From assembly GCA_963702425.1 (NCBI GenBank), contig CAVPCQ010000021.1:123118-187117 (forward strand): 64,000 bases of DNA, in the 5' to 3' direction. This document shows positions 49,721 through 63,839 of this stretch, in pieces. The stretch is from an uncultured Acidobacteriota bacterium. GTDB taxonomy: Bacteria; Acidobacteriota; Polarisedimenticolia; J045. A program made the translations under genes and the position numbers. Within the stretch, counting starts at the first letter, position 1. Each line of letters opens with the position of its first letter. The notes below the pieces were generated by a model, which did no database searches, had not been told where the DNA came from, and saw only the letters and a list, made by a program, of their open reading frames with translations.

Positions 49721-49739
49721 CTCCAAGGCGGCCCGCTCC

Positions 49740-50818
49740 TCACCAGAACCAGGTCGCGCCGACCGCGACCACGACCGCGACGTGGATCGCGACCGCGGCG
49801 AAGGCGGAGATCGCGAACGGCTGGTGGGCCGCGTGCCAGAACCGGAAGAGACGGTGGGTCGCGTCGAGCATCCGGGCCTGCTGCGCCAGCGCCATCTCGC
49901 GCCGGGCGAGCGCGAGCACGCGGCGCAGCGCGCGGCGGTCGAGCGCGTTCGGCCGGGCGGTGCGGATCTCCGCGGCGAGGCGCCGCGCCGCGCGCCGGCG
50001 CGCGAAGTCGTCGCGCGCCATCTGCGCGACCGCCGCAGCCAGGCCGAGGCCCGCGGCGTCAGCGGCGGCCGGGGCGAGCATCGTCTCGATGCGCTGCGGG
50101 TCGAGTCCGGTCGCCGCCGCGATCTCCCCGACCAGCTCGCGCCGCCGGCCGGCGGCTTCCTCGCGCGACAGCTCGAGGCCGTCCCTCCGGCGCGGGATGC
50201 GGACGTAGATGTAGCGCCCGATGACGCCGGAGAGCGCGACGACCAGCATCGCGGCATAGCCGAGGCCGATCAGGCCGCGGAATCGCCAGCCCGCGTGGAC
50301 CGCGCCGGCCAGCGGCACGACGATGCCGGCCGCGACGTGCACGTCGAGCCAGCGCGGCACCGAGCCGGTGAAGGCGAGCCAGCGCACGCGCTTGCGCAGC
50401 GGGTAGAGCCACAGGAAGAGGAACAGCGCGAAGGCGAAGATGCCGACCGACTGCCCGACGGTGCCCGAGGGGCGGAGCCAGGGGTGCCAGGCGTGCCGCA
50501 CGCGTCCGGCCTGCGACAGCAGGTAGTAGGGGCTGCCGAGCAGCGTGATGCGGCAGCACGGCGACGGGCAGGTAGGCCAGCCGCGGGTTGGCGGCGGTCT
50601 TCGGGGCCGCGGGAACCACCGTGGCCGGGGCGGGCAGGCGGCGAGTCTGGTGCGGCCGGGCGGGGGGAGGCGTGGCCGGGAAGACGGTCTTCCCGCTGGG
50701 GGGCGTGCGGCGCGATGGGCCGAGGGCCCGCCGGGGGTTGCGACGCGCCGGGGGCCGCGCGGACCGCACGCGCGGCCTCGCCCCCGGACCGGACGACGGT
50801 CCCCTGTGATTCGCTCAT
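49740..50818 (-). CDS. Integral membrane protein with conserved TM histidines (cytochrome b/ferric-reductase-like), two frameshifts near 50585 and 50552
   Basis: ATG 50818 after GGGGAG; LYPLRKR, WLDVH, VHAGWRF, SGVIGRYIY, WHAAH.PF, IHV. Length is 3n+2, consistent with two insertions. Confidence 0.72.
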
Positions 50819-50877
50819 TCAGCGGCTCCCCTGCACCTCTTATCGGATCGCACTTAGCATCTTTTAGGCCCACTTAA

Positions 50878-50893
50878 TGCAAGATCCGTGCCC
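50878..50893 (-). promoter_or_regulatory. Sigma54 (RpoN) -24/-12 promoter
   Basis: Minus strand GGGCACG-GATC-TTGCA versus consensus TGGCACG-N4-TTGCW; exact GG-N10-GC spacing; 60 nt upstream of the first gene; AT-richer context. Confidence 0.8.
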
Positions 50894-51226
50894 TCTAACC
50901 TATGGAAATTGAGGCACTTGGGGCCCTTCCTCTTACGATTCCGAATTCCGCCGCCCGATTACGCACACGATCTAGCCTGCAAGTAATCTCGACCGAGAGC
51001 GCCGCGCGTGGCGCCTGCTGCCCGAGCCGCACCCGTTGGCGGTCCGGGGCCCCGCCGGTTCCCCCCGCCGCCGGAAGCGCTCCCGCGAACCGCTCCCGCC
51101 CCCGACATACAATTTCACGAGTTGTTCTTTGTAAGCAGGATGCGGCGTCGTCATCCGACATACATCGGAACTTCCTCACGCTCGCCGATCGACGAGCGTA
51201 CCCTTCCGTCGAATCGGGAGGTGGCC

Positions 51227-52330
51227 ATGCGCTGCGCGGGGCTGGGGTGGAGTTGTCTCGTCGTGGTCTCCGGGGCGTTGATGTTGGTCGCGGGAGGTCT
51301 CGCCCGCGCCGGGAGCCTCGAGCCGCCGGGGCCGCCGGCTCCGACGATGAAGACGCTGCTCGAAGTCGAGCCGCGCGTCCCGGTCCAGTCCCTGACCGGC
51401 TCGAGCGTCGCGCTGTACGAGATCACCGAGCCGGGCTCGTACTACCTGGTCGACAACATCGTCGGCGGGCCCGGCATGACCGCGATCGCCATCCTCTCCA
51501 GCAACGTCGTGCTGGACCTGAACGGCTACGCGCTGATCGGAACACCGGACTCGGACACCGGGATCAACTTCATGGGCGGGCTCCAGAACTGCGTCGTGAT
51601 GAACGGGACCATCCGCGGCTGGCCCGTGAACAGCATCTTCGGCGTCAACTGCCAGGCCTGCCAGGTGCTGGACGTCCGGTCCGAGGACAGCGGCTCGCGC
51701 ATCAGCACGATCTCGGTCTGGATGGGCTTCCGCAGCCTGATCGACGGCGTGACGGTCCGCGGCAACCCGAACGGCCCGGGCGTCCAGGTCGAGGGGCTGA
51801 GCCACGTCCGGTCCACCACGGTGACGGCGAGCCTGGTCGGGTTCGTACTGAACGGCGAGAGCTGCAGCATCACGGAATCGGTTTCGACCGGAAACGCGGG
51901 TGCCGGGATCCAGGTCAACGGCAGCGGGCTGGTCTCTCACTGCGTCTCGAACAGCAACGTCGAGGGGGTGACGGTCTCCGGTGACGTGATGGTGGCGGAC
52001 AACGTGATGTTCAGCAATGAGCATGGCGTGCGCGTCACCGGCAGCAACAACCGCGTCGAGGGGAACCTCGTCACGACCTGGGACACCGGGATCGAGATCG
52101 AGGCGGGAGCGAGCGGGAACACGGTGCAGCGCAACCTGGTCGGCTGCGCCGGAAGCGGCACCGGGATCCAGGCCCAGGAGAACTCCCGCAACCTCGTCGT
52201 CGCCAACTCGGTCTCGGCCTGCACCACCCCCTACGACCTCGACCCCGCCAACGCGGTCGGCGAGATCCTCGACTTCACCGCCGGAGGCATCGTCACCTCC
52301 GGCAACCCGTACGCCAACTTCCGCTTCTGA
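51227..52330 (+). CDS. Secreted right-handed beta-helix protein (paralog A)
   Basis: RBS GGAGG; signal peptide; GSLEPPGPPAPTMKTLLEVEPR; PGSYYL, LDLNGY, N..GI repeats. Confidence 0.82.
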   Translation: MRCAGLGWSCLVVVSGALMLVAGGLARAGSLEPPGPPAPTMKTLLEVEPRVPVQSLTGSSVALYEITEPGSYYLVDNIVGGPGMTAIAILSSNVVLDLNGYALIGTPDSDTGINFMGGLQNCVVMNGTIRGWPVNSIFGVNCQACQVLDVRSEDSGSRISTISVWMGFRSLIDGVTVRGNPNGPGVQVEGLSHVRSTTVTASLVGFVLNGESCSITESVSTGNAGAGIQVNGSGLVSHCVSNSNVEGVTVSGDVMVADNVMFSNEHGVRVTGSNNRVEGNLVTTWDTGIEIEAGASGNTVQRNLVGCAGSGTGIQAQENSRNLVVANSVSACTTPYDLDPANAVGEILDFTAGGIVTSGNPYANFRF

Positions 52331-52351: not shown

Positions 52352-53248
52352 ATGAGCGAGCGCACCGGAACGGAGGGAGGGAAGGCCCGGGGCCGGCCGC
52401 GGCCGGTCGCCGGGCTCGCGCTGGTGACGTGCGTCGCCGCCGCGGCGTGGCTCGCCGCGGCCCCGGCGAGCGCGCAGTCCAACATCGATCCCGGGGACGC
52501 CGGGCTCCGCTACGCCTGGAGCGAGAACACGGGCTGGCTCAATGCCCGGCCGCTGGGCGCGGCCGGGCCCGGAGTTCTCGTCTCCGACTTCGCGTTGACC
52601 GGCTGGCTCTGGGCCGAGAATGTCGGCTGGATCAACCTGTCGTGCCGGAACCGCGGGACCTGTGCGGCCGCGCCCTACGGCGTGGTCAACGACGGGCAGG
52701 GCCACCTCTCCGGTTTCGCCTGGGGCGAGAACGTCGGCTGGATCGACTTCGGTCCAACCGGTGCCGGCGTGACGATCGATCCCGCGACCGGGGTCTTCTC
52801 CGGGCTGGCCTGGGGCGAGAACGTCGGCTGGATCTCGTTCGCCGGGACGGGTCCCGCACCCTTCGCGATCGAGACGGCGTGGCGCTGCAGCCCGCCCCCG
52901 CCCGCCCCGGCGGGCGTCCCGCGGCTCACGCTGCACGGCGTGGCGGAGGGGACGCGGCTCGATTGGACGGTCCTGCCCGGCGCCACGGCCTACGACGTGG
53001 TGCGCGGCGACCTGCGCACGCTGGCGCTGTCGGGCGGCGACTTCACGTCCGCGGTCACCGGCTGCGACGCGCGCCGGACCGCCGCCTCCACGATGCTGAC
53101 GACGCTCACTCCCTCCCCGGCGGGAGGGTTCTTCTACCTCGTGCGGGGCGCGAACTGCGGCGCCGCCGGCACGTTCGACTCGGGCGGTCCGGGGCAGGTC
53201 GGATCTCGCGACGGCGAGATCGCCGTCTCCCCGAACCGCTGCCCGTAG
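52352..53248 (+). CDS. Secreted protein with W(G/S/A)ENxGW repeats and the same C-terminal domain as 1089..5576
   Basis: Four AW.EN.GW(I/L)-type repeats, Pro linker, YDVVRG...YLVRGANC...NRCP*. Confidence 0.8.
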   Translation: MSERTGTEGGKARGRPRPVAGLALVTCVAAAAWLAAAPASAQSNIDPGDAGLRYAWSENTGWLNARPLGAAGPGVLVSDFALTGWLWAENVGWINLSCRNRGTCAAAPYGVVNDGQGHLSGFAWGENVGWIDFGPTGAGVTIDPATGVFSGLAWGENVGWISFAGTGPAPFAIETAWRCSPPPPAPAGVPRLTLHGVAEGTRLDWTVLPGATAYDVVRGDLRTLALSGGDFTSAVTGCDARRTAASTMLTTLTPSPAGGFFYLVRGANCGAAGTFDSGGPGQVGSRDGEIAVSPNRCP

Positions 53249-53269: not shown

Positions 53270-54367
53270 ATGCGTCCCAGGACGCGTTCACTGGGCTTCA
53301 TTCTCGGCGGGCTGATCGCGGCGGCCATCGCGGGCCCCGCTCTCGCCGGGTCGCTCGATCCGCCGGGGCCTCCCGCCCCGACCATGAAGACGCTGCTCGA
53401 GGTCGAGCCGCGGATCCCCGTGGAGCGGCTCCCCGGCTCGGCGACGGCGATGCACGTCATCACCGCCCCGGGCTCGTACGTCCTGACCGGCAACCTCGTC
53501 GCTGCCGGCGACATCGCCGCGATCGAGGTCGCCTCGGACAACGTGACGATCGACCTCAACGGCTTCGCGCTGATTGCGGAGAGCGCCGGGGCTGCGTCGG
53601 CGATCGACTTTCCCGCCGAGCAGCACTCGATCGCGATCCGCAACGGAACGATCAAGGGCTGGGGAGCGCACGCCATCCGCGGCTGGAACTGCAAGGACTG
53701 CCAGGTCCGCCGGATCCTCGCAACCGACAACAGCCTGGGGGGCGGTTACTCCGTGATCCAGCTCGGCGAGAGCGCCACGGTGTCGGAGTGCACCGTCGGC
53801 AATGCGGGCTTCACCGGGATCCAGGTCAGTGCCGGGAGCCTGATCGAAGACTGCATTGCGATCTGGTGCGGGCAGGGGTTCGAGCTGAGCGGCGAGAACT
53901 ACACGATCGTGCGCTCGGTGGCGCGCTACAACGGCGGCTACGGCATCTACCTCCAGGGCAGCGGGATCGTGGAGGACTGCGTCAGCGAGGGGAACCAGAT
54001 CGGGATCTACACCTCGAACAGTGTCCGCGTGGTGCGCAACACGGTCTCGAACAACGCGGTCTTCGGCATTCTCGTGGGCGGCTTCCACAACCTCGTGGCC
54101 GACAACCTGATCAACGGCCACTCCGCGGCCGGGGTGAAGATCCTGCCCGGGCTCGCGGGCGTCGTGCTCACGCGGAACCAGCTGGTCGGGAACGGGATCG
54201 GGGTCGAGGTCCAGGACGTCGGCGGGAACCTGATCGTCGGCAACACGGCGTCCGGCAACGGGATCGACTACAACGTCAGCCCGGCCAACGCCCTGGGCGC
54301 GGTCCACGACTTCACGGGCGGCGGCACGATCTCCATCGCCGCGCCCTGGGCGAACCTGCGCCACTGA
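53270..54367 (+). CDS. Secreted right-handed beta-helix protein (paralog B)
   Basis: RBS AAGGAG; GSLDPPGPPAPTMKTLLEVEPR; same architecture as paralog A. Confidence 0.82.
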   Translation: MRPRTRSLGFILGGLIAAAIAGPALAGSLDPPGPPAPTMKTLLEVEPRIPVERLPGSATAMHVITAPGSYVLTGNLVAAGDIAAIEVASDNVTIDLNGFALIAESAGAASAIDFPAEQHSIAIRNGTIKGWGAHAIRGWNCKDCQVRRILATDNSLGGGYSVIQLGESATVSECTVGNAGFTGIQVSAGSLIEDCIAIWCGQGFELSGENYTIVRSVARYNGGYGIYLQGSGIVEDCVSEGNQIGIYTSNSVRVVRNTVSNNAVFGILVGGFHNLVADNLINGHSAAGVKILPGLAGVVLTRNQLVGNGIGVEVQDVGGNLIVGNTASGNGIDYNVSPANALGAVHDFTGGGTISIAAPWANLRH

Positions 54368-54485
54368 CCGAGGCGGCCGGCACGGCCGACGACCGCCCGG
54401 AAGGAGCGACCGACCGCTCGCGTGGAGGGCGGTGTACTCGCGCCCAAGCCGCACCGACGATGTCCCCAGAGCGGAGGACACCCCC

Positions 54486-55682
54486 ATGACCGCCCGGCTC
54501 GCTGCCTTCGTTTCGCTCGTCGCCGCCCTGTCGACCGCCGCCCTCGCCGATGCCGGACCGCCGATCTCGATCGGGCAGATCCACACCCTCAAGTCCGCGG
54601 TCCTCGGCGAGGAGCGGACCGTGATGATCCACCTGCCGCCGGGCTATGAGGCCGGGGCGCAGCGCTACCCGGTGCTGTACCTGACCGACGCGGAAGCGCA
54701 GTTCGGACACACCGTCGCCACCGCCGACTTCCTCGCGGTGCAGGGCCGGATCCCGGCGCTGATCGTGGTCGCGATCCGGAACACCGAACGGACCCGCGAT
54801 CTCACGCCGACGAAGGGCTCACTCGCGGAGGGAGGCAAAGCCGTCCCCTTCCCCAAGGCCGGCGGAGCGGACCGCTTCCTCGCCTTCATCGGCACCGAGC
54901 TGGTGCCGTACGTCGAGAAGAACTTCCGCACGGTCCCGTATCGCGCGTTCGCCGGGCACTCGTTCGGCGGGCTGTTCGCCATGCACGCCTTCTTCACGCG
55001 GCCGGAACTCTTCCAGGCGATCCTGGCCGTCTCCCCGACCTTCAACTGGGACTCGGACTACATCCTGCGGCTCGCCGGGCCGTTCTTCGCGGAGAAGAAG
55101 GAGGCCCGGCACGCGCTGTTCGTGGCGATCGGGGACGAGCCGGAGCTCGAACCGGGGTTCCGGGCGCTGCGTGCGCTGGCGCCGACGGGCGCCGCGGAGG
55201 ACTTCGAGGCGACGTACCGCGAGTACCCGGACGACGATCACGGCTCGCTCGTGCTGGCCGCGCACCACGACGGCCTCCGGGCGCTGTTCGCCGACTGGGT
55301 CCTGCCGCGCGACGCACAGACCGGCTTTCCGCGCGGAAGCGCCGAGGAGATCGCCGCGCAGTTCGCGAGGCTGTCGAAGACCGTCGGCTTCACCGTGATC
55401 CCGCCGGAGCGGGTCGTGAACCTCGCCGGCTACGGGCGGCTCGCCGAGCGGAAGGTCCCGCAGGCGCTGGCGATCTTCGAGATGAACGCGCGGAACTACC
55501 CCGACGTCGCGAACGTCTGGGACAGCCTGGGCGACGGTCTCGAGGCCGCCGGTCGGCTCGACGACGCGAAGACCGCCGTGCTCAAGGCGGTCGCCCTGGG
55601 CGGGAAGAACGGCGATCCGCTGCTGCCCGCGTTCCGCGAGCACCTCGAGAAGCTCAACGCGCGGATCGCGGGCGGGAAGTAG
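54486..55682 (+). CDS. Secreted alpha/beta-hydrolase esterase (IroE/Fes-like) with C-terminal TPR
   Basis: YPVLYLTD, RTRDLTP, GHSFGG, NVWDSLG TPR. Confidence 0.85.
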   Translation: MTARLAAFVSLVAALSTAALADAGPPISIGQIHTLKSAVLGEERTVMIHLPPGYEAGAQRYPVLYLTDAEAQFGHTVATADFLAVQGRIPALIVVAIRNTERTRDLTPTKGSLAEGGKAVPFPKAGGADRFLAFIGTELVPYVEKNFRTVPYRAFAGHSFGGLFAMHAFFTRPELFQAILAVSPTFNWDSDYILRLAGPFFAEKKEARHALFVAIGDEPELEPGFRALRALAPTGAAEDFEATYREYPDDDHGSLVLAAHHDGLRALFADWVLPRDAQTGFPRGSAEEIAAQFARLSKTVGFTVIPPERVVNLAGYGRLAERKVPQALAIFEMNARNYPDVANVWDSLGDGLEAAGRLDDAKTAVLKAVALGGKNGDPLLPAFREHLEKLNARIAGGK

Positions 55683-56190
55683 CGGAGACCGCGGGCAGCT
55701 CCGCCATGGCGGCCCGCACGTCGCGCGCAATCGCGTCGGCCAGGGCCGGTGCCACGCGCTGAAGGTCCGGCGTCAGCGTGGCGCGGAATTCGTTCGCCGG
55801 CTCGATCTCGACGGCGTAGATCGCGATCGCCTCGTCCGGCGGGAGGTCCATCCCGAGCCTCCGCCCCAACGCGAGCGCGGTCGCGAGGTCCGCGTCGTGC
55901 GGGCCAGCGAGGCGGCGCGTCGGCGGCAGTGCGCCGGCCGTAAAGCGGTGCAGCGTCCCCGGCGCCGCCTGGCCGGTGACGATCGCGTCGACCAGGAAGA
56001 TGCGCTCGCGCCCGGCCAGCGGCTCGAGCAGCTCCAGCCCCCCGGACGAGCAGTCGTCGATCACGTCGATCTCCGCGAGGGGACCGCTGCCGGAGAGCCG
56101 CGCCGCGGCCGCCGCGGCCAGCACAAGGCCGATCGCATCGTCCCCAAGGATCGGGTTGCCCAGCCCCAGGAGCAGCGTGTTCGCCGGCAT
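55654..56190 (-). CDS. Hydrogenase maturation protease
   Basis: LGLGNPILGDDAIG, LVDAI, HD motifs; last gene of the hydrogenase operon. Confidence 0.9.
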   Translation of the reverse strand: MPANTLLLGLGNPILGDDAIGLVLAAAAAARLSGSGPLAEIDVIDDCSSGGLELLEPLAGRERIFLVDAIVTGQAAPGTLHRFTAGALPPTRRLAGPHDADLATALALGRRLGMDLPPDEAIAIYAVEIEPANEFRATLTPDLQRVAPALADAIARDVRAAMAELPAVSATSRPRSAR

Positions 56191-56213: not shown

Positions 56214-57680
56214 CTACCCGTCGCGCCGGATCTCGAGGACGACGCGGCCCCCCCGGTGCAGGCGCGCGACGAGCGGCATGGCCCCCGGGAGCGAGTGCGT
56301 CGCGCAGCTGTAGCAGGGATCGAAGGCGCGGAACGCCATCTCGATCCGATCCAGCAGCGCCGCGTCGGGCGTGACGCCCGGCCGGATCAACTCGGTCGCG
56401 ACCTTCTTCGTCACCATCTGGATCGGCGCATTGTTGTGGGTCGTGCCGACGACCAGGTTGGCGCCGGTGCAGATCCCCTGTTCGTCGCAGGTGTAGTGGT
56501 GGATGAGGGTGCCGCGCATCGCCTCGACGATCCCCACCCCCTCCCCCGTGATCCGGTCGGGCAGGACCCGGAAGGTCTCGCTCGTCAATTCCGGGTCGTC
56601 GAGCAGCGCGTTCAGTCGCTCCGCCGCGAACAGCATCTCGACCAGCCGGGCCCAGTGGTGCGCCAGCATCGCGCCCGACGGTCGGCCACCGAGCGTGGCG
56701 AACAGCTCCTGCCGCGCCGCCTCGGCCTCGGGCGTCGCCATCCGCTCCGCGACGTTGAGCCGCGCCAGCGGGCCGGCGCCGTAGACCGGCGAGTCCGGCC
56801 CTTCGACGAAGCCGCGCCAGCCGCGCGCGCGGAGGTAGGGGAACTTCAGGTAGGTCCAGGGCTCGACGTGTTCGGCGATGATGCGGGCGTAGTCCGCCGG
56901 TGCGAAGCGCGCGATCTCGCTCCCCTCGCAGTCGACGACGCGCACCATGCCGTCGTAGAACGTCACCGCGCCGTCGGCGTCGACCAGCCCCATGTGTCCG
57001 ATCGCCAGCGCGTAAGGGCCGCGAAGAATCGTCTCGACCCAGCGCTGCTGGCCGAGCACCGCGTCCTTGAAGAGCTGCACCGAGAAGCGCGCGAACTCCA
57101 TCAGCGACGCCGCCATCGGCTGCAGGGCGGAGCGTTCCTCCTCGGAGAGTCCCTTCGAGACACCGCCCGGCACGCACCAGCAGACGTTGCGCTTGCGGCC
57201 GCCGAGCACCGCCTGGATCTCCTGCGCCGTCGCGCGCGCCTCGATCACCTGGCGCCCGATCTCCAGCCCCACCCGGGCCACCACGCCGAGGATGTTGCGC
57301 TCCGCCGGCGCGGCGTCCGGCCCGCAGATGAAGTCCGGCGCGGAAAGAGCGTAGAAGTGCGCGATGTGGCTGTGCAGGAAGTGGGCGCAGTAGTACGCCT
57401 CGCGCAGCTTGACCGCGGCCGGCGCGATCGCCCCGCCGAAGCAGGCATCCACCGCCTTCGAGCCGGCCAGGTGGTGGCTGGCCGGGCAGACGCCGCAGAT
57501 CCGCGTGACGATCCGCGGCACCTCCTCGAGCGGCCGCCCGACGACGAAGCGCTCGAACCCGCGCAGCTCGGGAATCTGGAAGTAGCAGTCGGACACGCCG
57601 CCGGCGTCGTCGAGAAAGATCTCGATCCGGCCGTGTCCTTCGAGACGCGTGATCGGGTCGATCGTGATCGTCCGGCCCAT
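56214..57680 (-). CDS. mvhA: [NiFe]-hydrogenase large subunit, group 3c (MvhA-like)
   Basis: TRLEGHG, ELRGFE, L1 RICGVC, L2 DPCYSCATH followed by a cleavable tail. Confidence 0.9.
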   Translation of the reverse strand: MGRTITIDPITRLEGHGRIEIFLDDAGGVSDCYFQIPELRGFERFVVGRPLEEVPRIVTRICGVCPASHHLAGSKAVDACFGGAIAPAAVKLREAYYCAHFLHSHIAHFYALSAPDFICGPDAAPAERNILGVVARVGLEIGRQVIEARATAQEIQAVLGGRKRNVCWCVPGGVSKGLSEEERSALQPMAASLMEFARFSVQLFKDAVLGQQRWVETILRGPYALAIGHMGLVDADGAVTFYDGMVRVVDCEGSEIARFAPADYARIIAEHVEPWTYLKFPYLRARGWRGFVEGPDSPVYGAGPLARLNVAERMATPEAEAARQELFATLGGRPSGAMLAHHWARLVEMLFAAERLNALLDDPELTSETFRVLPDRITGEGVGIVEAMRGTLIHHYTCDEQGICTGANLVVGTTHNNAPIQMVTKKVATELIRPGVTPDAALLDRIEMAFRAFDPCYSCATHSLPGAMPLVARLHRGGRVVLEIRRDG

Positions 57681-58642
57681 CAGCGGTAGCTCCTCTGCAA
57701 CAGCGATCCGGGAAGCGTGTAGCGGTTCGTGGTGCCGAGGACATCGGGCAGCCCGGCGAGCGCGGCCTCGGCCTCCTCAACGGTCTTCGCCTCGATCATC
57801 GAGGCCCAGGCACCGACCAGCGCAGCGCCCTGGTCGATCACTCCGGGCGGCGGTCCGTAGCAACCGCGGCAAGGCTGGTTGATGTCCGGGCAGCGCGCGC
57901 CGCAGCCGCCGCGCGTCGCCGGGCCGGCGCACGCGAGCCCCTGCTCGAGCAGACAGGTCTCGAGATCCGGCACGATCTCCCACGACCGGACGAAGCGCGT
58001 CACGCGCTTCTCGTCCTTGCGCCGGCGGCATTCGTCGCAGAGCGCCTTCTCCGCCGCGCCGAGCACCGCGCCCTTCGGTGGCAGAGTGCCGCTGGCGAGC
58101 GTCGCGAGCACCTCGCGCACCTGTTCCGGCACCGGCGGGCAGCCGGGCACGACGTAGTCCACCTCCACGACGTCGGCGAGGCGCCAGACCCGCGGGTAGA
58201 ACGACGGCAGCTCCAGGTCGGTCCCGTTGACCGGCACGTGCGTCCGCGGCACGGTCCGGTTCCCCTCCTCGATCGTCGGATTGTCGAGGTAGACCCGTTC
58301 GAGGATCTCCTCCCGCGAGCAGGCGTTGGCGAGGCCGGGAATGCCGCCGAACGCCGCGCAGCTGCCGAGGGCCACGAGCAGCTTGCTCTTGCGCCGCAGG
58401 AGATGCGCGACATCTTCGTTCTCCGCGTTGCGGACTGCGCCACTGAAGAGCGTCGCATCGAGTGCGCCGTCCGGGAGTGCCTCCACGTCGGCATACTTGC
58501 CGTCCACCGCGATCGGCCAGAAGAGGATGTCGGCCTCCGCCGCCAGCTCGAGGATGTACTCGTGGGTGTCGAGCACGGCGACGTCGCACCCGCCGCAGGC
58601 GGCCCCCCAGTAGAGCGCGATCTTCAGCTTGTCTTCAGCCAT
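57680..58642 (-). CDS. mvhG: [NiFe]-hydrogenase small subunit (MvhG-like)
   Basis: ACGGC, GSCA..GGIPGL, PGCPP, CLLEQG..C.GP.T..GC...CP....PCRGCYGP. Confidence 0.9.
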   Translation of the reverse strand: MAEDKLKIALYWGAACGGCDVAVLDTHEYILELAAEADILFWPIAVDGKYADVEALPDGALDATLFSGAVRNAENEDVAHLLRRKSKLLVALGSCAAFGGIPGLANACSREEILERVYLDNPTIEEGNRTVPRTHVPVNGTDLELPSFYPRVWRLADVVEVDYVVPGCPPVPEQVREVLATLASGTLPPKGAVLGAAEKALCDECRRRKDEKRVTRFVRSWEIVPDLETCLLEQGLACAGPATRGGCGARCPDINQPCRGCYGPPPGVIDQGAALVGAWASMIEAKTVEEAEAALAGLPDVLGTTNRYTLPGSLLQRSYR

Positions 58643-58645
58643 CGC

Positions 58646-59077
58646 TCACCCCACCCGCGTCACGGCCGGGAGCGTCTCGACGCGGCTCGGGCCGAGCTTC
58701 CGGATCCGCTCGGTCATGTCGGCGACGATTTCCGCGAAGCGCTGCCCCTCGCTCGCGCTGACCCACTCCAGGCGCACCCGGTCCGGCTCGAGCCCGTAGG
58801 CCTCGACCAGGCGCGCCAGCAGCACCTGCCGCCGCAGCGTCTTGTAGTTCCCCTCCGAGTAGTGGCAGTCGCCCGGGTGACAGCCGCAGATCAGCACGCC
58901 ATCGGCCCCTTCGGCCAGCGCCTTGAGCACGAACGACGGCCGGATCCGTGCCGAGCACATCGTCCGGATCACGCGCACGTTCGGCGGGTACTTGATCCGG
59001 CTGGTCCCCGCCAGGTCGGCTCCGGTGTACGAGCACCAGTTGCAGAGGAAGCCGACGATCTTCGGTTCGAACGCCAT
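58646..59077 (-). CDS. mvhD: MvhD [2Fe-2S] subunit
   Basis: FLCNWCSYTGADLAG, MCSAR, GCHPGDCHY, WVSASEG. Confidence 0.92.
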   Translation of the reverse strand: MAFEPKIVGFLCNWCSYTGADLAGTSRIKYPPNVRVIRTMCSARIRPSFVLKALAEGADGVLICGCHPGDCHYSEGNYKTLRRQVLLARLVEAYGLEPDRVRLEWVSASEGQRFAEIVADMTERIRKLGPSRVETLPAVTRVG

Positions 59078-60792
59078 CAGAGTACCCCCTCGATCTGGGC
59101 GAAGATCTGTTCGTCGGTGAAGTGCCGGGCCCGGATCGCCGAGGACGGGCAGGCCGCCGCGCAGCAGCCACAGGCCTTGCACGACGCCTCGATCACGCGG
59201 CTGGTGCGCCGCGCGTCGTCGTACTCGATCGCGCCGTAGGGACACAGCGCGCCGCAGATCCGGCAGCCCGAGCAGCGCGTCTCGTTGACCTCCGCGAAGA
59301 TCGCGTCGACCTCGATCTTCCCCTTGGCGACCTTCGCCAGGATCCGCGCCGCCGCCGCGCGGGCCTGGGCCACCGAGTCGGGAATGTCCTTCGGCGACTG
59401 GCAGGCCCCGGCGATGTAAACGCCGTCGGTCGTCGTTGCCACCGGATCGAGCTTGGGGTGGCTCTCGATGAACCAGCCGTCCTTGTCGCGGCTGATGTTG
59501 ACCAGCTGCGCGACGCGGGCGGAGTCCTCGCGCGGCTCCATCCCCACCATCAGGACGACGAGGTCGGCGGGAACCTCGATCTCCTCGCCGGACAGTTGCT
59601 CGTCCAGCGTGATCAGCAGGTTGCAGTCGTCCTTCGGGCCGGCCGGCCGGATCTCCGGCGCCGCGTTCTTGCCGTACATCAGGAAGAGCGTCTTGATCTC
59701 GGCCGTCTTGCGGTAGAAGTCCTCGCAGCCCTTCCCGAAGGCGTGCATGTCGATGTACAGGTCGACCACCGCGGTGTCGGGCAGCGCCGACTTGACCTCC
59801 TGCCCGTACTTCAGCGCGGTCATGCAGCAGACGCGCGAGCAGTAGCCGTGAAACTCCTCCGAACGGCTGCCGACGCAGTGGACCAGCGCCACGATGCGCG
59901 GGGTCCGGCCGTCGGCGGTTTCGATCCGGCCCCGCTTCAGCATCGCCTCCAGCTCGAACGAGGTAATTACGTTGGGCAGCCGCCCGTATCCGAGGCCCGC
60001 GACGCGCGCGGCGTCGAACTCCTTGTATCCGGTGCAGACGACGACCGACCCGACCTCGAGCTGCCGCGTTGCGCCGCCGACGCCAACGTCCGCGGTGAAG
60101 TTCCCCTGGTACCCCTCCAGCCGCTCGAGCTCCGCGCGGAACAGGACCGTGATCATCGGGTGCAGTGCGACGCGCGTGAGCCGGTCGAGGAGCAGGTCAC
60201 GCGCCGCATCCAGGTGCGGCGCGGTGAGGTCGACGCGGGCGACGTTTCCTCCCAGCCGGTCGCTCCGCTCGACGATCGTCACCGGCTGCCCGGCGTCGGC
60301 CAGTTGCAGCGCGGCGGTCATCCCGGAGATCCCGCCCCCGATCACGAGCGTGGCCGGGTTCATCGGGACGAAGCGCTTCTCCAGCGGCTCGTGCCGCGCG
60401 ACGCGCGCGACCGCAGCCCGGACCAGCGCGAGCGCCTTGTCGGTGGCGGCACGCGGATCGTCGTGGACCCAGCTGCACTGCTCGCGGATGTTCGCCATCT
60501 CGAGCAGGTAGGGGTTGATTCCCGACGCCGCCAGCGCACGGCGGAAGGTCGGCTCGTGCATCCGCGGGCTGCACGCGGCAACGACCACGCGGTCGAGCTG
60601 CCTGTTCCGGACCTCTTCAGCGATCATCTCCTGGCCGGGATCGGAGCACATGTACTTGTAGGCCCGCGCGACCACGACTCCCGGCCACTCCGGCGCTACG
60701 CGGACGATCTCCTCGCAGTCGACGGTGCGGGCGATGTTCGTGCCGCAGTTGCAGACGAAGACGCCGATGCGCGGGAGGTCAGGCTGGCTCAT
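59077..60792 (-). CDS. hdrA: Heterodisulfide reductase subunit A-like flavoprotein (with N-terminal Cys domain and C-terminal ferredoxin)
   Basis: VFVCNCGTNIA, MCS, ACSP, NIREQCSWVH, IGGGISG, CVGSR, CSRVCC, PKDIPDSV, two C-terminal CxxCxxCxxxCP. Confidence 0.88.
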   Translation of the reverse strand: MSQPDLPRIGVFVCNCGTNIARTVDCEEIVRVAPEWPGVVVARAYKYMCSDPGQEMIAEEVRNRQLDRVVVAACSPRMHEPTFRRALAASGINPYLLEMANIREQCSWVHDDPRAATDKALALVRAAVARVARHEPLEKRFVPMNPATLVIGGGISGMTAALQLADAGQPVTIVERSDRLGGNVARVDLTAPHLDAARDLLLDRLTRVALHPMITVLFRAELERLEGYQGNFTADVGVGGATRQLEVGSVVVCTGYKEFDAARVAGLGYGRLPNVITSFELEAMLKRGRIETADGRTPRIVALVHCVGSRSEEFHGYCSRVCCMTALKYGQEVKSALPDTAVVDLYIDMHAFGKGCEDFYRKTAEIKTLFLMYGKNAAPEIRPAGPKDDCNLLITLDEQLSGEEIEVPADLVVLMVGMEPREDSARVAQLVNISRDKDGWFIESHPKLDPVATTTDGVYIAGACQSPKDIPDSVAQARAAAARILAKVAKGKIEVDAIFAEVNETRCSGCRICGALCPYGAIEYDDARRTSRVIEASCKACGCCAAACPSSAIRARHFTDEQIFAQIEGVL

Positions 60793-60802
60793 CGCTCCTC
60801 CC

Positions 60803-61981
60803 TCACGCCGCCGCCGGGGCACGCCCGGCCGCGCCGGCGTCGTCCGACGGGTTGCCGGCGACGGGTACCGCCGCCGACTCCCAGGCTCGCTCGTGCAGGT
60901 CGGCGAAGTACATCGCCAGCGGCCGGTAGGCGAGGTGAGACCACTTGGAGAACGGGACCTCGACGGCGAGCATCGGGACGGCTCCCATCAGGTGCGCGAC
61001 GTAGACGACGTTGGCCGCCGCGTCGAGTCCGAACCAACGGTAGAGCACATGCTGGAGGAACCCCGTCGAGGCGACGTAGACCAGGAGGATCAGGAACACC
61101 CAGTCGGTCTCGTGGGAGTGGCGGTGGAGCGGCGTCTGGCGGCGCCAGCGGCCGCGCAGGGCGTAGATCGTCGTGCCCAGCAGGCCCGCCGTCGCGAGGT
61201 AACCGAAGGCGTGGGCCAGCCTGTTCGCCGGTGACGCGTGCAGCTGTTCGAGGAACAGCATGATCAGCGCCAGCATCGTCAGGTAGCTCAGGACCAGGAC
61301 GAAGTGGACCGTCCAGGGGCGCTTGCTCTCGCACTCCCGGTAGCGCTTCTGGGTGGCGAAGTGCAGCGGCGCGAGGAAGAAGCGCTTCACGTAATCGAGC
61401 GGCGGCACGCGGAGCCGGCGGTCGCGGCCCGTCGTCAGCCACCACATCCGCGTGCAGTTGGCGGCGAGCAGGGCCGCCAGCGTACCGCCCAGGATCCAGT
61501 CGAAGACGTGGACCGCGCTGGCCGGCAGAAAGGCGCCCGGCCCGGTGTAAACCGCGAGGCTCCCTCCCCCGTACTTGAGGCCGAAGAGCAGGAAGCCGGC
61601 CCCGGTGAGCAGCGCCACCAGCAGCACGGCCAGCAGCTCCGCGCGCCACGAGCGATAGAAGAGGCGCGAGAGCCCGGTCACGTCGTACTGCGCGGTGAGC
61701 CAGCGCCGGATGCTCATCATCGTCTCGCCCGGCTCGGCCTCGCGCGGGCACTGCTCGCTGCACTCGCCGCAGTAGTAGCAGAGCCACGGCTCGAGGGTGC
61801 CGGCCAGGCGCTCCTCCAGCCCCATCTGCAGGTAGCGCATCGACTTGCGCGGGAACAGGAAGGGCTCTTTCGAGAACGGGCAGACCGCCGAGCAGTTGCC
61901 GCAGTGGTAGCAATTCTGCACGTCCTCGGCGCCGTAGAGTGCCAGCTCGTCGATCAGGCGGGGATTCGCGCGAACGGCCAT
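60803..61981 (-). CDS. QmoC-like protein: HdrC-type 2x[4Fe-4S] domain plus cytochrome b transmembrane domain
   Basis: CYHCGNCSAVCP, PWLCYYCGECSEQCPR, ~6 TMs with His residues, PFSKWSHLAYRP. Confidence 0.82.
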   Translation of the reverse strand: MAVRANPRLIDELALYGAEDVQNCYHCGNCSAVCPFSKEPFLFPRKSMRYLQMGLEERLAGTLEPWLCYYCGECSEQCPREAEPGETMMSIRRWLTAQYDVTGLSRLFYRSWRAELLAVLLVALLTGAGFLLFGLKYGGGSLAVYTGPGAFLPASAVHVFDWILGGTLAALLAANCTRMWWLTTGRDRRLRVPPLDYVKRFFLAPLHFATQKRYRECESKRPWTVHFVLVLSYLTMLALIMLFLEQLHASPANRLAHAFGYLATAGLLGTTIYALRGRWRRQTPLHRHSHETDWVFLILLVYVASTGFLQHVLYRWFGLDAAANVVYVAHLMGAVPMLAVEVPFSKWSHLAYRPLAMYFADLHERAWESAAVPVAGNPSDDAGAAGRAPAAA

Positions 61982-61991
61982 CGGCCTCTCC

Positions 61992-63839
61992 TCAGAGCGC
62001 CGCGAGCTGGGGGGCCAGCTCGCGTGCGCGGGCTTCGACGTCGGCGACGGTCAGCCCGCCGCTGCTGTCGCGCTCGATCCCGCTGACGACGCTGCGCAGC
62101 GCGCGGGCCGCGACCGCGGCCGCCTGGGCCACGCTGTCGGGGATGTCCTTGGGACCTTGGCAGACGCCGGCGACGAAGATCCCGCCGCGCTCAGTTCCGG
62201 TCGGGTCGGAGTTGTATTCCAGCTCGCGGAAGAAGCCGTGCTCGTCGCGCCCGATGCCCAGCAGCTTTGCCAGGTCCCCGGCGCCCGGTGACGGCTGGAG
62301 GCCGACCGACAGCAGGACCATGTCCACCGGGTGCTCGAGCATCCGCTCGCCGAGGATGTCCTCCCCCTTGACGACCATCTGTCCGTCCTTCTCGATCACC
62401 TTCGCCGAGCGACCGCGCACGACGGCGACCCCTTCATCCTTGATCCGCTCGAAGAAATCCTCGTACCCCTTCCCGAACGCGCGCATGTCGATGTAGAACT
62501 CGTAGCAGCGCGCCTCGGGCAGCTTCTCGCGGACCAGGTGGGCGAACTTCAGCGAGTACATGCAGCAGACGCGCGAGCAGTACGAGTTGTGGTTCCGGTC
62601 GCGTGAGCCGACACAGTGGATGATCGCGACGCTCCGCGGCGCCGGCCCCTCCGGATCGACGACCCATTCGTCGACCTTCTTGCGCTTGTTGAAGCGCCTG
62701 GTCTTCGTCACGATCCGACCGCCGGTCGGACCGGAGGCGTTGGTCAACCGCTCGAATTCGAGCGCAGTGAGAACGTTTGGCAGTTGGCCGTAGCCATAAC
62801 GCTCGATCTTCTCGGCCGGGAAGGGCTCGTAGCCGGTGGCGACGATGATGTTCCCGACATCGCGCACGGTGACCTCGTCCTCGGCGTCGAGGTCGATCGC
62901 CCGCTTGGCGCACTTCTTGACGCACGCGCCGCAGCGCTGCCTCTGGCTCTGGACGTAGACGCAGTTCGCGGCGTCGATCAGGTAGGCGTTGGGTACCGCC
63001 TGCGGGAATGGCATGTAGATCGCCTTGCGCGTCGTGATCCCGGCGTCGAACTCGGACGGGACCACCGTCGGGCAGACCTCCATGCAGGCGTGGCAGGCGA
63101 CGCACGCCACGGGGTCCACGCGCCGGGCGCGGTTCCGGATTTCGACGCGGTAGTTGCCCGGGCTGCCGTCGACCCCGATCACCTCCGACAGCGTCATGAC
63201 CTCGATCATCTCGTGCTGCCCGACGGCGACCATCTTCGGCGTCAGGATGCAGGCCGCGCAGTCGAGCGTCGGGAAGGTCTTGTCGAACATCGCCATGTGG
63301 CCGCCGAGCGTGCCGGTGCGCTCGACCAGAACGACGCGCTGGCCGGCATCGGCGATCTCGAGCGCGGCCTGGATGCCCGCGACGCCGCCGCCGATCACCA
63401 GCGTCCCGGCGTGGACGGCGCGCGTCTCGCGGATCGTCGCCAGGTGGTACGGCACGCCGAGCACGGCGCAAGCGACGGCAGCCTGGGCAGCGTCGGTCGC
63501 GTCGCTGGCGCTGCCGCCGCGACGGTAACGCGCGAGGCGCACCCGCTCCGGGTTGCCGCCGGCGAGTTCCATCGCGCGCGTGAAGGCCGGCTTCAGCGCG
63601 CCGGGATTCACGCCCGCCAGCACGGCGACGTCCAGCTTGTCGCATCGAACCTTCGCCGCGAGCGCGAGCGGATCGGGGCGTGGCACGGACGCGAGGCGCT
63701 CGACGCGCACCACCTCGGGGAGGGCTGCGGCGTAGGCCTGCACCGTGGCCGTATCGACGGGCGGCGCATCGATCGCCGGCCGATCGGTCGGTTCCGAGAT
63801 CAGAAAGACCGCGACGCGCGGAGGGGCGTCGACACTCAT
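61992..63839 (-). CDS. hdrA: Second HdrA-like flavoprotein (degenerate N-terminal domain, inserted ferredoxin, no C-terminal ferredoxin)
   Basis: IGGGVAG, DKTFPTLDCAACILTPKM, CVACHACMEVCP, ALEFERL, CSRVCCMY, PKDIPDSV. Confidence 0.85.
   Translation of the reverse strand: MSVDAPPRVAVFLISEPTDRPAIDAPPVDTATVQAYAAALPEVVRVERLASVPRPDPLALAAKVRCDKLDVAVLAGVNPGALKPAFTRAMELAGGNPERVRLARYRRGGSASDATDAAQAAVACAVLGVPYHLATIRETRAVHAGTLVIGGGVAGIQAALEIADAGQRVVLVERTGTLGGHMAMFDKTFPTLDCAACILTPKMVAVGQHEMIEVMTLSEVIGVDGSPGNYRVEIRNRARRVDPVACVACHACMEVCPTVVPSEFDAGITTRKAIYMPFPQAVPNAYLIDAANCVYVQSQRQRCGACVKKCAKRAIDLDAEDEVTVRDVGNIIVATGYEPFPAEKIERYGYGQLPNVLTALEFERLTNASGPTGGRIVTKTRRFNKRKKVDEWVVDPEGPAPRSVAIIHCVGSRDRNHNSYCSRVCCMYSLKFAHLVREKLPEARCYEFYIDMRAFGKGYEDFFERIKDEGVAVVRGRSAKVIEKDGQMVVKGEDILGERMLEHPVDMVLLSVGLQPSPGAGDLAKLLGIGRDEHGFFRELEYNSDPTGTERGGIFVAGVCQGPKDIPDSVAQAAAVAARALRSVVSGIERDSSGGLTVADVEARARELAPQLAAL

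What the first reader, a model, noticed from the sequence alone, without database searches (positions are those of the whole stretch)
59077..63839. Two HdrA paralogs with complementary domain losses: possible asymmetric HdrA heterodimer
Seen: HdrA at 61992-63839 lacks the N-terminal Cys ligands and the C-terminal ferredoxin but keeps FPTLDCAAC and the inserted ferredoxin. HdrA at 59077-60792 has the N-terminal Cys domain and the C-terminal ferredoxin but has lost both the DCxxC (reads APHLDAARD) and the inserted ferredoxin. Both retain CSRVCC and the nearby Glu/Lys. Established (from memory of the methanogen HdrABC-MvhAGD structure): HdrA is a homodimer whose N-terminal cluster takes a Cys from the partner subunit. 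Inference: the pair reconstitutes one full set of electron routes as a subfunctionalised heterodimer.
Basis: partly seen in the sequence, partly recalled or inferred. Interest (0 to 1): 0.72.

Follow-up and report, generated by a model that had tools for sequence, protein, structure and literature searches.

The report
Complementary HdrA pair in Qmo-like hydrogenase
Two related flavoproteins, each missing the parts the other keeps, sit either side of a membrane cytochrome gene and next to a hydrogenase; they probably pair up to split hydrogen's electrons between membrane quinone and ferredoxin, an idea already in print for archaea but never tested.

Summary
HdrA-I (61992-63839) keeps Cys194/Cys197 (DCAAC) and the inserted ferredoxin. 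It has a folded but Cys-free N-terminal domain and no C-terminal ferredoxin. HdrA-II (59077-60792) is the mirror image. Both keep the FAD motifs and CSRVCC.

It also missed that the pair copies the QmoA/QmoB division of labour. The full operon is hdrA-I, qmoC-like, hdrA-II, mvhD, mvhG, mvhA and a protease, with no HdrBC.

The trio is never split where enough DNA was held:
- From HdrA-I: QmoC 74 of 74 loci, HdrA-II 68 of 68.
- From HdrA-II: QmoC 72 of 72 loci, HdrA-I 62 of 62.

The heterodimer reading is therefore well supported by comparison. It was not tested structurally, because the complex predictor was unavailable.

It is not new in kind:
- HdrA heterodimers inferred from Cys197/N-terminal complementarity were published for ANME archaea (PMC9012536).
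- An Mvh + two HdrA + QmoC cluster, proposed to split H2 electrons between menaquinone and ferredoxin, was published for Ca. Methanoglobus.
- This scan has reported the same module before on other DNA.

What I add:
- The same complementarity is present in bona fide QmoA/QmoB and in a second operon variant.
- It probably arose more than once.
- The input module varies (Mvh, Fdh-like, Flx-like).

The parts
61992..63839 (-). HdrA-I, the 'A-type' subunit (QmoA-like), 615 aa. Cys-free but folded N-terminal domain, FAD domain with DCAAC (Cys194/Cys197), inserted 2x[4Fe-4S] ferredoxin, CSRVCC cluster site, no C-terminal ferredoxin.
   Evidence: AlphaFold model has mean pLDDT 82.5, with pLDDT 86-93 over residues 31-100 of the N-terminal domain. 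Best structural matches are HdrA chains over about 600 columns.
60803..61981 (-). QmoC-like membrane subunit, 392 aa. N-terminal HdrC-like 2x[4Fe-4S] domain plus a hydrophobic cytochrome-b-type domain (HdrE/NarI-like).
   Evidence: NCBIfam qmoC matches over 9-359 at 164.6 bits, below the 300-bit cut-off; HdrC model matches 21-94. Fer4_8 and a weak Nitrate_red_gam hit. 8 Cys and His226/His330/His349 are shared with bona fide QmoC; about 5 hydrophobic segments.
59077..60792 (-). HdrA-II, the 'B-type' subunit (QmoB-like without the fused MvhD), 571 aa. N-terminal cluster domain with Cys, FAD domain without Cys194/Cys197 (Ala/Asp), no inserted ferredoxin, CSRVCC, C-terminal 2x[4Fe-4S] ferredoxin.
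58646..59077 (-). MvhD ([2Fe-2S] adaptor). Its ATG overlaps the hdrA-II stop codon (TGATG).
   Evidence: Pfam FlpD 183 bits; junction read.
57680..58642 (-). MvhG-type [NiFe]-hydrogenase small subunit.
   Evidence: Oxidored_q6; VhuG model 232 bits, below cut-off.
56214..57680 (-). MvhA-type [NiFe]-hydrogenase large subunit. RICGVCPASH and DPCYSCATH motifs are visible in the translation.
   Evidence: NiFeSe_Hases; VhuA model 374 bits, below cut-off; translation.
55654..56190 (-). HycI-type hydrogenase maturation protease, the last gene of the operon.
   Evidence: Pfam HycI; start fixed; conserved downstream of mvhA in most related loci.

Best explanation
The two genes encode the two unlike halves of one HdrA-type dimer inside a seven-gene, Qmo-like, membrane-anchored hydrogenase complex.

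Shown:
- The sequence complementarity.
- Its conservation across the family.
- The obligate gene linkage with a QmoC-like gene.
- The usual linkage with mvhDGA.
- The absence of HdrBC.

Inferred by homology to the solved HdrA homodimer:
- HdrA-II supplies the N-terminal [4Fe-4S] site, and HdrA-I supplies its fourth ligand (Cys197). The cluster can therefore form only at one of the two interfaces of a heterodimer.
- HdrA-II alone carries the C-terminal ferredoxin that meets MvhD.
- HdrA-I alone carries the inserted ferredoxin that is the low-potential exit.
- The CSRVCC cluster hands the high-potential electron to the HdrC-like domain of QmoC, and from there through haems b to menaquinone.

Proposed net reaction (inferred, and already proposed in print for an archaeal cluster of the same make-up): H2 electrons are bifurcated at FAD to menaquinone (downhill) and ferredoxin (uphill). 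The reverse is also possible.

The hydrogenase is an exchangeable input. In some relatives an Fdh-like molybdoenzyme or an Flx-like NAD(P)H module stands in its place.
For: Domain pattern:
- Established against 5ODC.
- Conserved in 74 A-type and 65 B-type sequences, the window's own plus orthologues.

Co-occurrence:
- From HdrA-I in the best 80 of 588 genome loci: QmoC 74 of 74, HdrA-II 68 of 68. MvhA lies downstream in 56, directly upstream in 6 and is not adjacent in 2 of 64.
- From HdrA-II in the best 80 of 558 metagenome loci: QmoC 72 of 72, HdrA-I 62 of 62.

Context in this genome:
- Only these two HdrA genes are present.
- No CCG-domain (HdrB-type) gene is adjacent.
- In the 94%-identical relative L003, the genes upstream of hdrA-I are unrelated: a kinase, a CHAT-domain protein and an ECF sigma factor.
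- Gene junctions are 10 nt gaps or overlapping stop/start codons.

Parallel families:
- Bona fide QmoA/QmoB of Acidobacteriota, and a second operon variant (HdrA-B, MvhD, MvhG, MvhA, QmoA-like, QmoC-like), show the same A/B complementarity.
- QmoABC is described as a complex of these three subunits with two FAD and two haems b (PMC3333476, passages).

Literature:
- The partner-Cys197 ligand and the heterodimer logic: PMC9012536.
- The same cluster make-up and the H2 to menaquinone + ferredoxin proposal in Ca. Methanoglobus: bioRxiv 10.1101/2022.12.01.518715 and 10.1101/2023.09.08.556235, with high transcript levels there.

Physiology of the genome:
- A futalosine-pathway family gene (VitK2_biosynth) and a pyruvate:ferredoxin oxidoreductase are present.
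- AprA and DsrA were not found; the genome is 91% complete.

Alternative inputs:
- Flx-like genes in L161 and L176.
- An Fe-S protein plus a molybdopterin oxidoreductase after MvhD in L031.
Against: - There is no physical evidence. No model of the complex could be made.
- Both subunits keep FAD motifs and the CSRVCC cluster, and there is one qmoC gene, so stoichiometry and the bifurcating flavin are open.
- HdrA-II has Asp at the Cys197 position in 89% of the family. An Asp-ligated cluster in a homodimer is not excluded.
- HdrA-I keeps a well-folded N-terminal domain, and 74% of the family (not the window's copy) keep one of its Cys. Simple loss does not explain this.
- Accounts of the electron path in methanogen HdrA differ between the papers I read. 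Which domain is entry and which is exit therefore rests on a debated template.
- The co-occurrence counts cover only the 80 best-matching loci of each search and are biased towards close relatives.
- The QmoC-like and Mvh proteins score below NCBI's equivalog cut-offs.
Confidence: 0.6

Rival explanations
1. The complex exists as described but does not bifurcate. It is a plain H2:menaquinone oxidoreductase, or a quinol- and ferredoxin-driven H2 producer working only in reverse. The inserted ferredoxin of HdrA-I serves as a wire or is idle.
For: No biochemical data exist for any member. I read none for bacterial members, and the archaeal papers only hypothesise. The genome has other hydrogenases that could do other jobs. 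Relatives occur in MAGs labelled Syntrophorhabdaceae, and in Bacteroidales and Thermoleophilia; a link to fermentation or syntrophy, where H2 production is useful, is my inference, not a call result.
Against: All 8 Cys of the inserted ferredoxin, both FAD sites and the interface cluster ligands are 93-100% conserved. That is hard to explain if the low-potential branch were unused. A simple H2:quinone enzyme would not need two HdrA subunits.
Confidence: 0.2
2. The low-potential or third partner is not free ferredoxin but a specific protein or thiol carrier that docks on HdrA-I, in the way QmoA docks on AprAB in sulfate reducers.
For: QmoA, the counterpart of HdrA-I, was reported to interact with AprAB (PMC3333476, passages). 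HdrA-I has family-specific invariant Cys124 and near-invariant Cys445 of unknown role.
Against: AprA and DsrA were not found in this genome, which is 91% complete. No further conserved gene accompanies the operon in the loci examined. In L003 the upstream genes are unrelated.
Confidence: 0.13
3. The two paralogs do not pair with each other. Each forms its own homodimer, with separate roles in the same pathway.
For: Asp at the Cys197 position of HdrA-II (89% of the family) could in principle serve as a cluster ligand in a homodimer. Canonical HdrA is a homodimer.
Against: The two are never found apart (68 of 68 and 62 of 62 loci). The gains and losses are exactly reciprocal at four sites. The same split occurs in QmoA/QmoB, which is described as one complex. 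An HdrA-I homodimer would have Cys197 with no cluster to bind.
Confidence: 0.07

Closest known systems
Mvh + two HdrA + QmoC/HdrC-fusion gene cluster of Ca. Methanoglobus nevadensis and Ca. M. hypatiae (bioRxiv 10.1101/2022.12.01.518715; 10.1101/2023.09.08.556235; passages read)
   Same: Same parts list: an Mvh-type [NiFe] hydrogenase, two HdrA homologues (one called QmoB-like by DiSCo) and a membrane cytochrome b QmoC with an HdrC-like domain, with no HdrB. Same proposed role: electron flow or bifurcation between H2, ferredoxin and menaquinone.
   Different: Those clusters are archaeal and this one is bacterial (Acidobacteriota). I could not fetch the archaeal sequences, so orthology and gene order are untested. 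The passages I read do not mention the reciprocal domain losses. No biochemistry exists for either.
[quoted passage not shown]
   Same: Two HdrA paralogs plus QmoC. In my alignment, QmoA has no N-terminal domain, keeps the Cys197 column and the inserted ferredoxin, and has no C-terminal ferredoxin. QmoB has the N-terminal Cys, no Cys197, no inserted ferredoxin, and a C-terminal ferredoxin. That is the same split as HdrA-I/HdrA-II.
   Different: - HdrA-I keeps a Cys-free N-terminal domain.
- MvhD is a separate gene, not fused to the B subunit.
- Gene order is A-C-B, not A-B-C.
- The operon is linked to a hydrogenase, not to aprBA; AprA and DsrA were not found in this genome.
- QmoC scores 164.6 bits against a cut-off of 300.
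- In the tree both HdrA-I and HdrA-II lie with canonical HdrA, apart from type I QmoA+QmoB. This fits the 'type II Qmo' of PMC10504309.
MvhAGD-HdrABC of hydrogenotrophic methanogens (PDB 5ODC, 8RVU, 7BKB)
   Same: MvhD/G/A and the HdrA fold with FAD, the CSRVCC cluster, the N-terminal cluster completed by the partner's Cys197, and the two ferredoxin domains.
   Different: There HdrA is one protein forming a symmetric homodimer, and the acceptor module is soluble HdrBC reducing CoM-S-S-CoB. Here the features are divided between two proteins and the acceptor module is a membrane QmoC-like cytochrome. No HdrBC is adjacent.
Tandem and fused HdrA paralogs of ANME archaea and the fused HdrA of Moorella thermoacetica MetFV-HdrABC-MvhD (PMC9012536, section 15 read)
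   Same: [quoted passage not shown] That paper proposes this as a forced heterodimer that breaks the two-fold symmetry.
   Different: Different partners (HdrBC, HdrD, FdhAB-like, MetFV) and no QmoC. [quoted passage not shown]

Membership tests
HdrA (bifurcating flavoprotein of HdrABC; PDB 5ODC) | Thioredoxin-reductase-like FAD domain with GxGxxG and the CSRVCC [4Fe-4S] site | tested here: met
   Both proteins. The Cys of the CSRVCC site are 96-100% conserved. The Gly of GxGxxG are invariant.
HdrA (bifurcating flavoprotein of HdrABC; PDB 5ODC) | Each subunit has the N-terminal cluster Cys, Cys197, the inserted ferredoxin and the C-terminal ferredoxin | tested here: not met
   Each protein has two of the four; together they have one full set. 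NCBIfam HdrA models score 517 and 609 bits against cut-offs of 1100 or more.
HdrA (bifurcating flavoprotein of HdrABC; PDB 5ODC) | Works with HdrB/HdrC (CCG-domain disulfide reductase) | tested here: not met
   No CCG-domain gene lies in the operon. The genome's CCG hits are on contigs C2 and C32. No HdrBC was sought or seen in the related loci; only the seven operon proteins were used as queries.
QmoABC | Two HdrA paralogs with divided domains, plus a QmoC (HdrC-like Fe-S domain fused to a cytochrome b membrane domain) | tested here: met
QmoABC | Equivalog-level similarity and placement with type I QmoA/QmoB/QmoC | tested here: not met
   qmoC model scores 164.6 bits against a cut-off of 300. 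Bona fide QmoC in 21 of 201 Acidobacteriota genomes scores 306-429 bits. The tree puts type I QmoA+QmoB apart (support 99).
QmoABC | QmoB carries a fused MvhD-like domain; genes linked to aprBA and sulfate metabolism | tested here: not met
   MvhD is a separate gene. AprA and DsrA were not found in the 91%-complete genome.
Mvh-2xHdrA-QmoC cluster (Ca. Methanoglobus type) | MvhAGD, two HdrA homologues and a QmoC/HdrC fusion in one cluster, without HdrB | tested here: met
   against the descriptions read.
Mvh-2xHdrA-QmoC cluster (Ca. Methanoglobus type) | Sequence orthology with the archaeal genes | not testable with these tools
Group 3c (Mvh/Vhu-type) [NiFe] hydrogenase | Large, small and MvhD subunits with metal-site motifs | tested here: inconclusive
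   Best NCBIfam hits are VhuA, VhuG and VhuD, but all are below the curated cut-offs. FlpD scores 183 bits. The CxxC motifs were read. No hydrogenase-class classifier was available.

The most novel reading that the evidence does not exclude
Splitting HdrA into an 'A' and a 'B' half is a recurrent solution that evolved more than once. It turns a symmetric two-lane bifurcating dimer into a single-lane, membrane-anchored machine with a plug-in donor (Mvh hydrogenase, Fdh-like enzyme or Flx-like NAD(P)H module) and quinone as the downhill acceptor. If so, this module would be a widespread and so far unmeasured route by which soil and sediment bacteria of many phyla make reduced ferredoxin from H2, or dispose of quinol electrons as H2.
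Probability: 0.4. Interest if true: 0.7.

Novelty: new member of a known kind. Interest (0 to 1): 0.42.

Why it matters
Whether Qmo-type complexes bifurcate or confurcate electrons has been an open proposal since at least 2012 (PMC3333476). Part of the difficulty is that the third partner of QmoB is unknown.

In this operon the third partner is written into the gene cluster: a hydrogenase joined through MvhD. The three substrates (H2, quinone, ferredoxin) can therefore be named and assayed.

The reciprocal domain losses also predict where the single interface cluster sits and which subunit carries which branch. That gives clear mutants and a clear target for a structure.

The module is common. 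More than 588 genome loci and more than 558 metagenome stretches matched, across Acidobacteriota, Actinomycetota, Bacteroidota, Myxococcota and others. Its activity would therefore bear on hydrogen and ferredoxin budgets in anoxic soils and sediments.

Tried and rejected
The hetero- versus homodimer comparison remains undone.
- **Expression**: no RNA holder was listed among 24 runs. No reads were laid.
- **Literature searches for the bacterial operon or for an explicit QmoA/QmoB complementarity**: none was found in the held library.
  - The Geobacter proteome paper, the peatland Acidobacteria preprint, the SRB partner paper, the Thermodesulfovibrio genome paper and the D. autotrophicum genome paper do not describe it.
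  - The review by Appel et al. 2021 (BBA 1862:148379) is not held. It may already treat QmoA/QmoB in these terms.
  - Only one supplementary file of PMC10504309 was held as text and searched (a spreadsheet). It holds nothing on 'type II', and I did not see Supplementary Figs 11-13, so I could not confirm that this module is their 'type II Qmo'.
- **A hidden HdrBC upstream, beyond the contig end** (the window ends at the contig end): rejected, because the 94%-identical locus L003 has unrelated genes there.
- **A single origin of all A-type or all B-type subunits**: rejected by AU tests, p 0.0016 and 0.0006. Caveats: a quick LG+G4 tree, long type I Qmo branches, and groups that I defined by architecture but tested only after seeing the tree.

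Full report
**What is in the sequence**

The window has about 70% G+C, and its right end is the end of contig C21 of a 5.1 Mb, 91%-complete genome. Seven tightly packed genes lie on the minus strand from 63839 down to 55654:

| Gene | Coordinates |
|---|---|
| HdrA-I | 61992-63839 |
| QmoC-like protein | 60803-61981 |
| HdrA-II | 59077-60792 |
| MvhD | 58646-59077 |
| MvhG | 57680-58642 |
| MvhA | 56214-57680 |
| HycI-type protease | 55654-56190 |

Gaps between genes are about 10 nt, or the stop and start codons overlap. The hdrA-II stop and the mvhD start read TGATG. Pfam and NCBIfam name the parts as expected. The best families for both flavoproteins are the HdrA models, at 517 and 609 bits, far below the equivalog cut-offs of 1100 or more. 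The middle gene matches the qmoC model over its whole length at 164.6 bits (cut-off 300), and the HdrC model over residues 21-94.

**Check of the observation**

Against HdrA of the Methanothermococcus thermolithotrophicus complex (PDB 5ODC):

- HdrA-I aligns over residues 28-587 (E 1.7e-128).
- HdrA-II aligns in two blocks, 6-235 and 244-570, which skip residues 233-318 of the template (E 9.2e-150).

HdrA-I:
- It reads FPTLDCAAC where the template reads FPTNDCSIC. By my count of the printed alignment these are Cys194 and Cys197.
- It keeps the 8 Cys of the inserted ferredoxin, and CSRVCC.
- It ends shortly after the flavin domain.
- Its first 130 residues are homologous to the HdrA N-terminal domain (36% identity to that of HdrA-II over 241 residues).
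- It carries none of the Cys at the ligand columns.

HdrA-II:
- It keeps Cys 14, 16, 49, 74 and 106.
- It has Ala and Asp in place of Cys194 and Cys197.
- It has no inserted ferredoxin.
- It keeps CSRVCC and an 8-Cys C-terminal ferredoxin.

The Lys after CSRVCC and the Glu of the TALEFE/TSFELE stretch are invariant in both families. An AlphaFold model of HdrA-I, built on a 58-sequence alignment, has mean pLDDT 82.5. Its N-terminal domain is a confident alpha/beta fold (pLDDT 86-93 for residues 31-100). The loop just before DCAAC is the least confident part. Foldseek's best matches are HdrA chains over about 600 columns at 40% identity.

**Is it more than chance?**

I searched one genome per species for relatives of HdrA-I. 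588 stretches matched, and the best 80 were kept. They come from MAGs labelled Acidobacteriota, Thermoleophilia and other Actinomycetota, Aminicenantes, Bacteroidales, Chrysiogenales, Myxococcota/Deltaproteobacteria, Verrucomicrobia, Latescibacterota, Fibrobacteraceae, Sumerlaeota, Eisenbacteria and others.

Among loci with enough downstream DNA:
- A QmoC-like gene follows in 74 of 74.
- An HdrA-II-type gene follows in 68 of 68.
- MvhA lies downstream in 56, directly upstream in 6 (the Bacteroidales order mvhDGA-hdrA-I-qmoC-hdrA-II), and is not adjacent in 2 of 64.

The reciprocal search started from HdrA-II in metagenome contigs. 558 relatives were found and the best 80 kept. QmoC lay upstream in 72 of 72 loci and HdrA-I in 62 of 62.

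In a MAFFT alignment of 74 A-type and 65 B-type sequences (the window's own plus orthologues), the reciprocal pattern holds at 93-100% per column, apart from the N-terminal Cys26 column, which is Cys in 72%. Two details do not fit a simple-loss picture:
- 74% of A-type proteins (not the window's) keep one N-terminal Cys.
- B-type proteins have Ser and Asp (92% and 89%) in place of Cys194 and Cys197.

These counts cover the best-matching loci only, so they lean towards close relatives.

**What the pair belongs to**

That protein has:
- the 8 Cys of an HdrC-like two-cluster domain;
- about five hydrophobic segments;
- His226, His330 and His349, which are shared with bona fide QmoC.

In 201 Acidobacteriota genomes the qmoC model finds two tiers: bona fide QmoC at 306-429 bits in 21 genomes, and a lower tier of full-length matches at about 165-240 bits to which the window's protein belongs.

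I fetched four bona fide qmoABC loci. HdrA-I is most like QmoA (33-37% over the flavin domain). HdrA-II is most like QmoB (26-29% over its whole length), and the separate MvhD matches the C-terminal domain of QmoB.

Bona fide QmoA and QmoB show the same division:
- QmoA has no N-terminal domain. It keeps a Cys in the Cys197 column and the inserted ferredoxin, and has no C-terminal ferredoxin.
- QmoB has N-terminal Cys, no Cys197, no inserted ferredoxin, and a C-terminal ferredoxin.

A second operon variant in Acidobacteriota shows the split again, with a 440-aa A-type protein that lacks the N-terminal domain altogether. Its order is HdrA-B, MvhD, MvhG, MvhA, QmoA-like, QmoC-like.

The window's pair is therefore the A and B subunits of a Qmo-like complex. 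QmoABC is described in the paper I read as one complex of these three subunits, with two FAD and two haems b (PMC3333476, passages).

**Context in this genome**

- These are the only two HdrA genes.
- CCG-domain (HdrB/HdrD-type) genes lie on other contigs.
- AprA and DsrA were not found.
- A pyruvate:ferredoxin oxidoreductase is present, and so is a gene of the VitK2_biosynth family, which belongs to the futalosine route to menaquinone.
- The genome has other [NiFe] hydrogenases.
- In the 94%-identical relative L003, the genes upstream of hdrA-I are a Ser/Thr kinase, a CHAT-domain protein and an ECF sigma factor. The operon therefore starts with hdrA-I, and nothing relevant is lost beyond the contig end.

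**How it most likely works**

The premise that the N-terminal cluster of HdrA takes its fourth ligand, Cys197, from the partner subunit is stated in PMC9012536, which cites the crystal structure paper. I did not read that paper.

By homology, a heterodimer would have:
- one interface cluster (HdrA-II N-terminal Cys plus HdrA-I Cys197);
- one C-terminal ferredoxin, next to MvhD, on HdrA-II;
- one inserted ferredoxin, the low-potential exit, on HdrA-I;
- two FAD and two CSRVCC clusters, one or both of which would feed the HdrC-like domain of QmoC and, through haems b, menaquinone.

The net reaction would be bifurcation of H2 electrons to menaquinone and ferredoxin, or the reverse.

The sequence pattern and the gene linkage are shown. 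The pairing, the path and the reaction are inferred. The two accounts of the methanogen electron path that I read differ on whether MvhD reaches FAD through the C-terminal ferredoxin or directly by domain movement. The assignment of entry and exit is therefore provisional.

**Exchangeable donors**

The trio is the constant core.
- In L161 and L176, three upstream genes replace the hydrogenase: two Fe-S proteins and a protein with FAD_binding_6, NAD_binding_1 and DHODB_Fe-S_bind domains. This resembles an Flx-type NAD(P)H module.
- In L031, MvhD is followed by an Fe-S protein and a molybdopterin oxidoreductase. L060 and L141/L142 also keep MvhD but have no MvhG/MvhA nearby. In L141 the gene after MvhD is an Fe-S protein. 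Downstream of MvhD in L060 and L142 was not annotated.
- This recalls formate dehydrogenase replacing Mvh in methanogens (PMC9012536).

**Evolution**

I built a quick maximum-likelihood tree (51 rows, 508 columns, LG+G4, unrooted).
- Type I QmoA and QmoB sit together on one side (support 99).
- HdrA-I-type proteins form their own clade.
- HdrA-II-type proteins group with the B subunits of the second variant and with canonical bacterial HdrA.

Holding all A-types, or all B-types, on one side of a branch is rejected (AU p 0.0016 and 0.0006). This suggests that the A/B split arose independently in type I Qmo and in this family. It also agrees with the statement that 'type II' qmoAB genes are closer to hdrA than to bacterial qmoAB (PMC10504309).

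Caveats: type I Qmo branches are long, the search was short, and I ran the tests after seeing the tree.

**What is already known**

- Heterodimers of HdrA paralogs inferred from Cys197/N-terminal complementarity were proposed for tandem and fused HdrAs of ANME archaea and for Moorella (PMC9012536, section 15).
- A cluster of MvhABG, two HdrA homologues and a QmoC-HdrC fusion was described in Ca. Methanoglobus nevadensis, with the suggestion of electron flow between H2, ferredoxin and menaquinone (bioRxiv 10.1101/2022.12.01.518715).
- In Ca. M. hypatiae the cluster is highly transcribed, and bifurcation from H2 to menaquinone and ferredoxin is hypothesised (bioRxiv 10.1101/2023.09.08.556235).
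- Seven searches found no paper in the held library that describes the bacterial operon or states the QmoA/QmoB complementarity. The review by Appel et al. 2021 is not held and may cover it.
- This scan has reported the same module on other DNA several times, with the same reading. I reached mine before looking.

**Verdict**

The heterodimer interpretation is the best reading and passes the co-occurrence test, but it is unproven and not new in kind.

The finding is a bacterial member of a published but biochemically untested class: Mvh or another donor, plus an A/B HdrA pair, plus QmoC.

Its value lies in three things: how clear the reciprocal pattern is, how widespread it is, and that it names all three substrates. 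That makes the long-standing Qmo bifurcation idea testable.

Noticed in passing
window 59077-60792 (HdrA-II residue 199) and orthologues: The position of Cys197 is Asp in 89% and that of Cys194 is Ser in 92% of HdrA-II-type proteins (the window has Ala and Asp). A conserved Asp facing the Cys-free N-terminal domain of HdrA-I has no explanation yet.
   Followed up: partly
window 61992-63839 (HdrA-I Cys124, Cys445) and 59077-60792 (HdrA-II Cys390): There are family-specific conserved Cys outside the known cluster sites: Cys124 invariant and Cys445 97% in the A-type, Cys390 92% in the B-type. 74% of A-type proteins also keep one N-terminal Cys. Their role is unknown.
   Followed up: no
L161:150-2991, L176:136-2899; L031:13132-15991: In some relatives the hydrogenase is replaced by another donor module. 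One is an Flx-like set: Fe-S proteins plus an FAD/NAD(P)H/2Fe-2S protein. The other is MvhD followed by an Fe-S protein and a molybdopterin oxidoreductase (formate-dehydrogenase-like).
   Followed up: partly
L180 (G035:C21:9000-23000), L181 (G165:C2:119000-133000): A second operon variant occurs in Acidobacteriota: B-type HdrA, MvhD, MvhG, MvhA, a 440-aa QmoA-like protein and a QmoC-like protein. Its B-type subunit keeps four Cys of the inserted ferredoxin, possibly one cluster.
   Followed up: partly
Acidobacteriota genomes (e.g. G030:C77, G045:C4, G063:C190): Many HdrA-like matches in other Acidobacteriota carry a single in-frame TGA. These may be selenocysteine forms of HdrA. I did not check at which residue the TGA falls.
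   Followed up: no
window 51008-52330, 52352-53248, 53270-54367: Two paralogous secreted right-handed beta-helix (NosD-like) proteins share a near-identical N-terminal stretch (…PPGPPAPTMKTLLEVEPR…). They flank a 298-aa protein with repeated 'ENVGWI' motifs and no Pfam match.
   Followed up: partly
window 54432-55682: A putative esterase (PF00756) with a signal-like N-terminus lies directly downstream of the hydrogenase operon on the opposite strand.
   Followed up: partly
G000 contigs C12:232285-233823 and C15:1627-3165: Two [NiFe]-hydrogenase large-subunit genes give identical scores on different contigs. This is either a duplication or redundant assembly; genome contamination is estimated at 5.85%.
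   Followed up: no
window 40983-50893: A giant multihaem cytochrome cluster lies upstream in the same window. It was already the subject of an earlier report of this scan (e1-6575905). If it is an electron outlet, it and the quinone-linked hydrogenase could belong to one respiratory chain.
   Followed up: no
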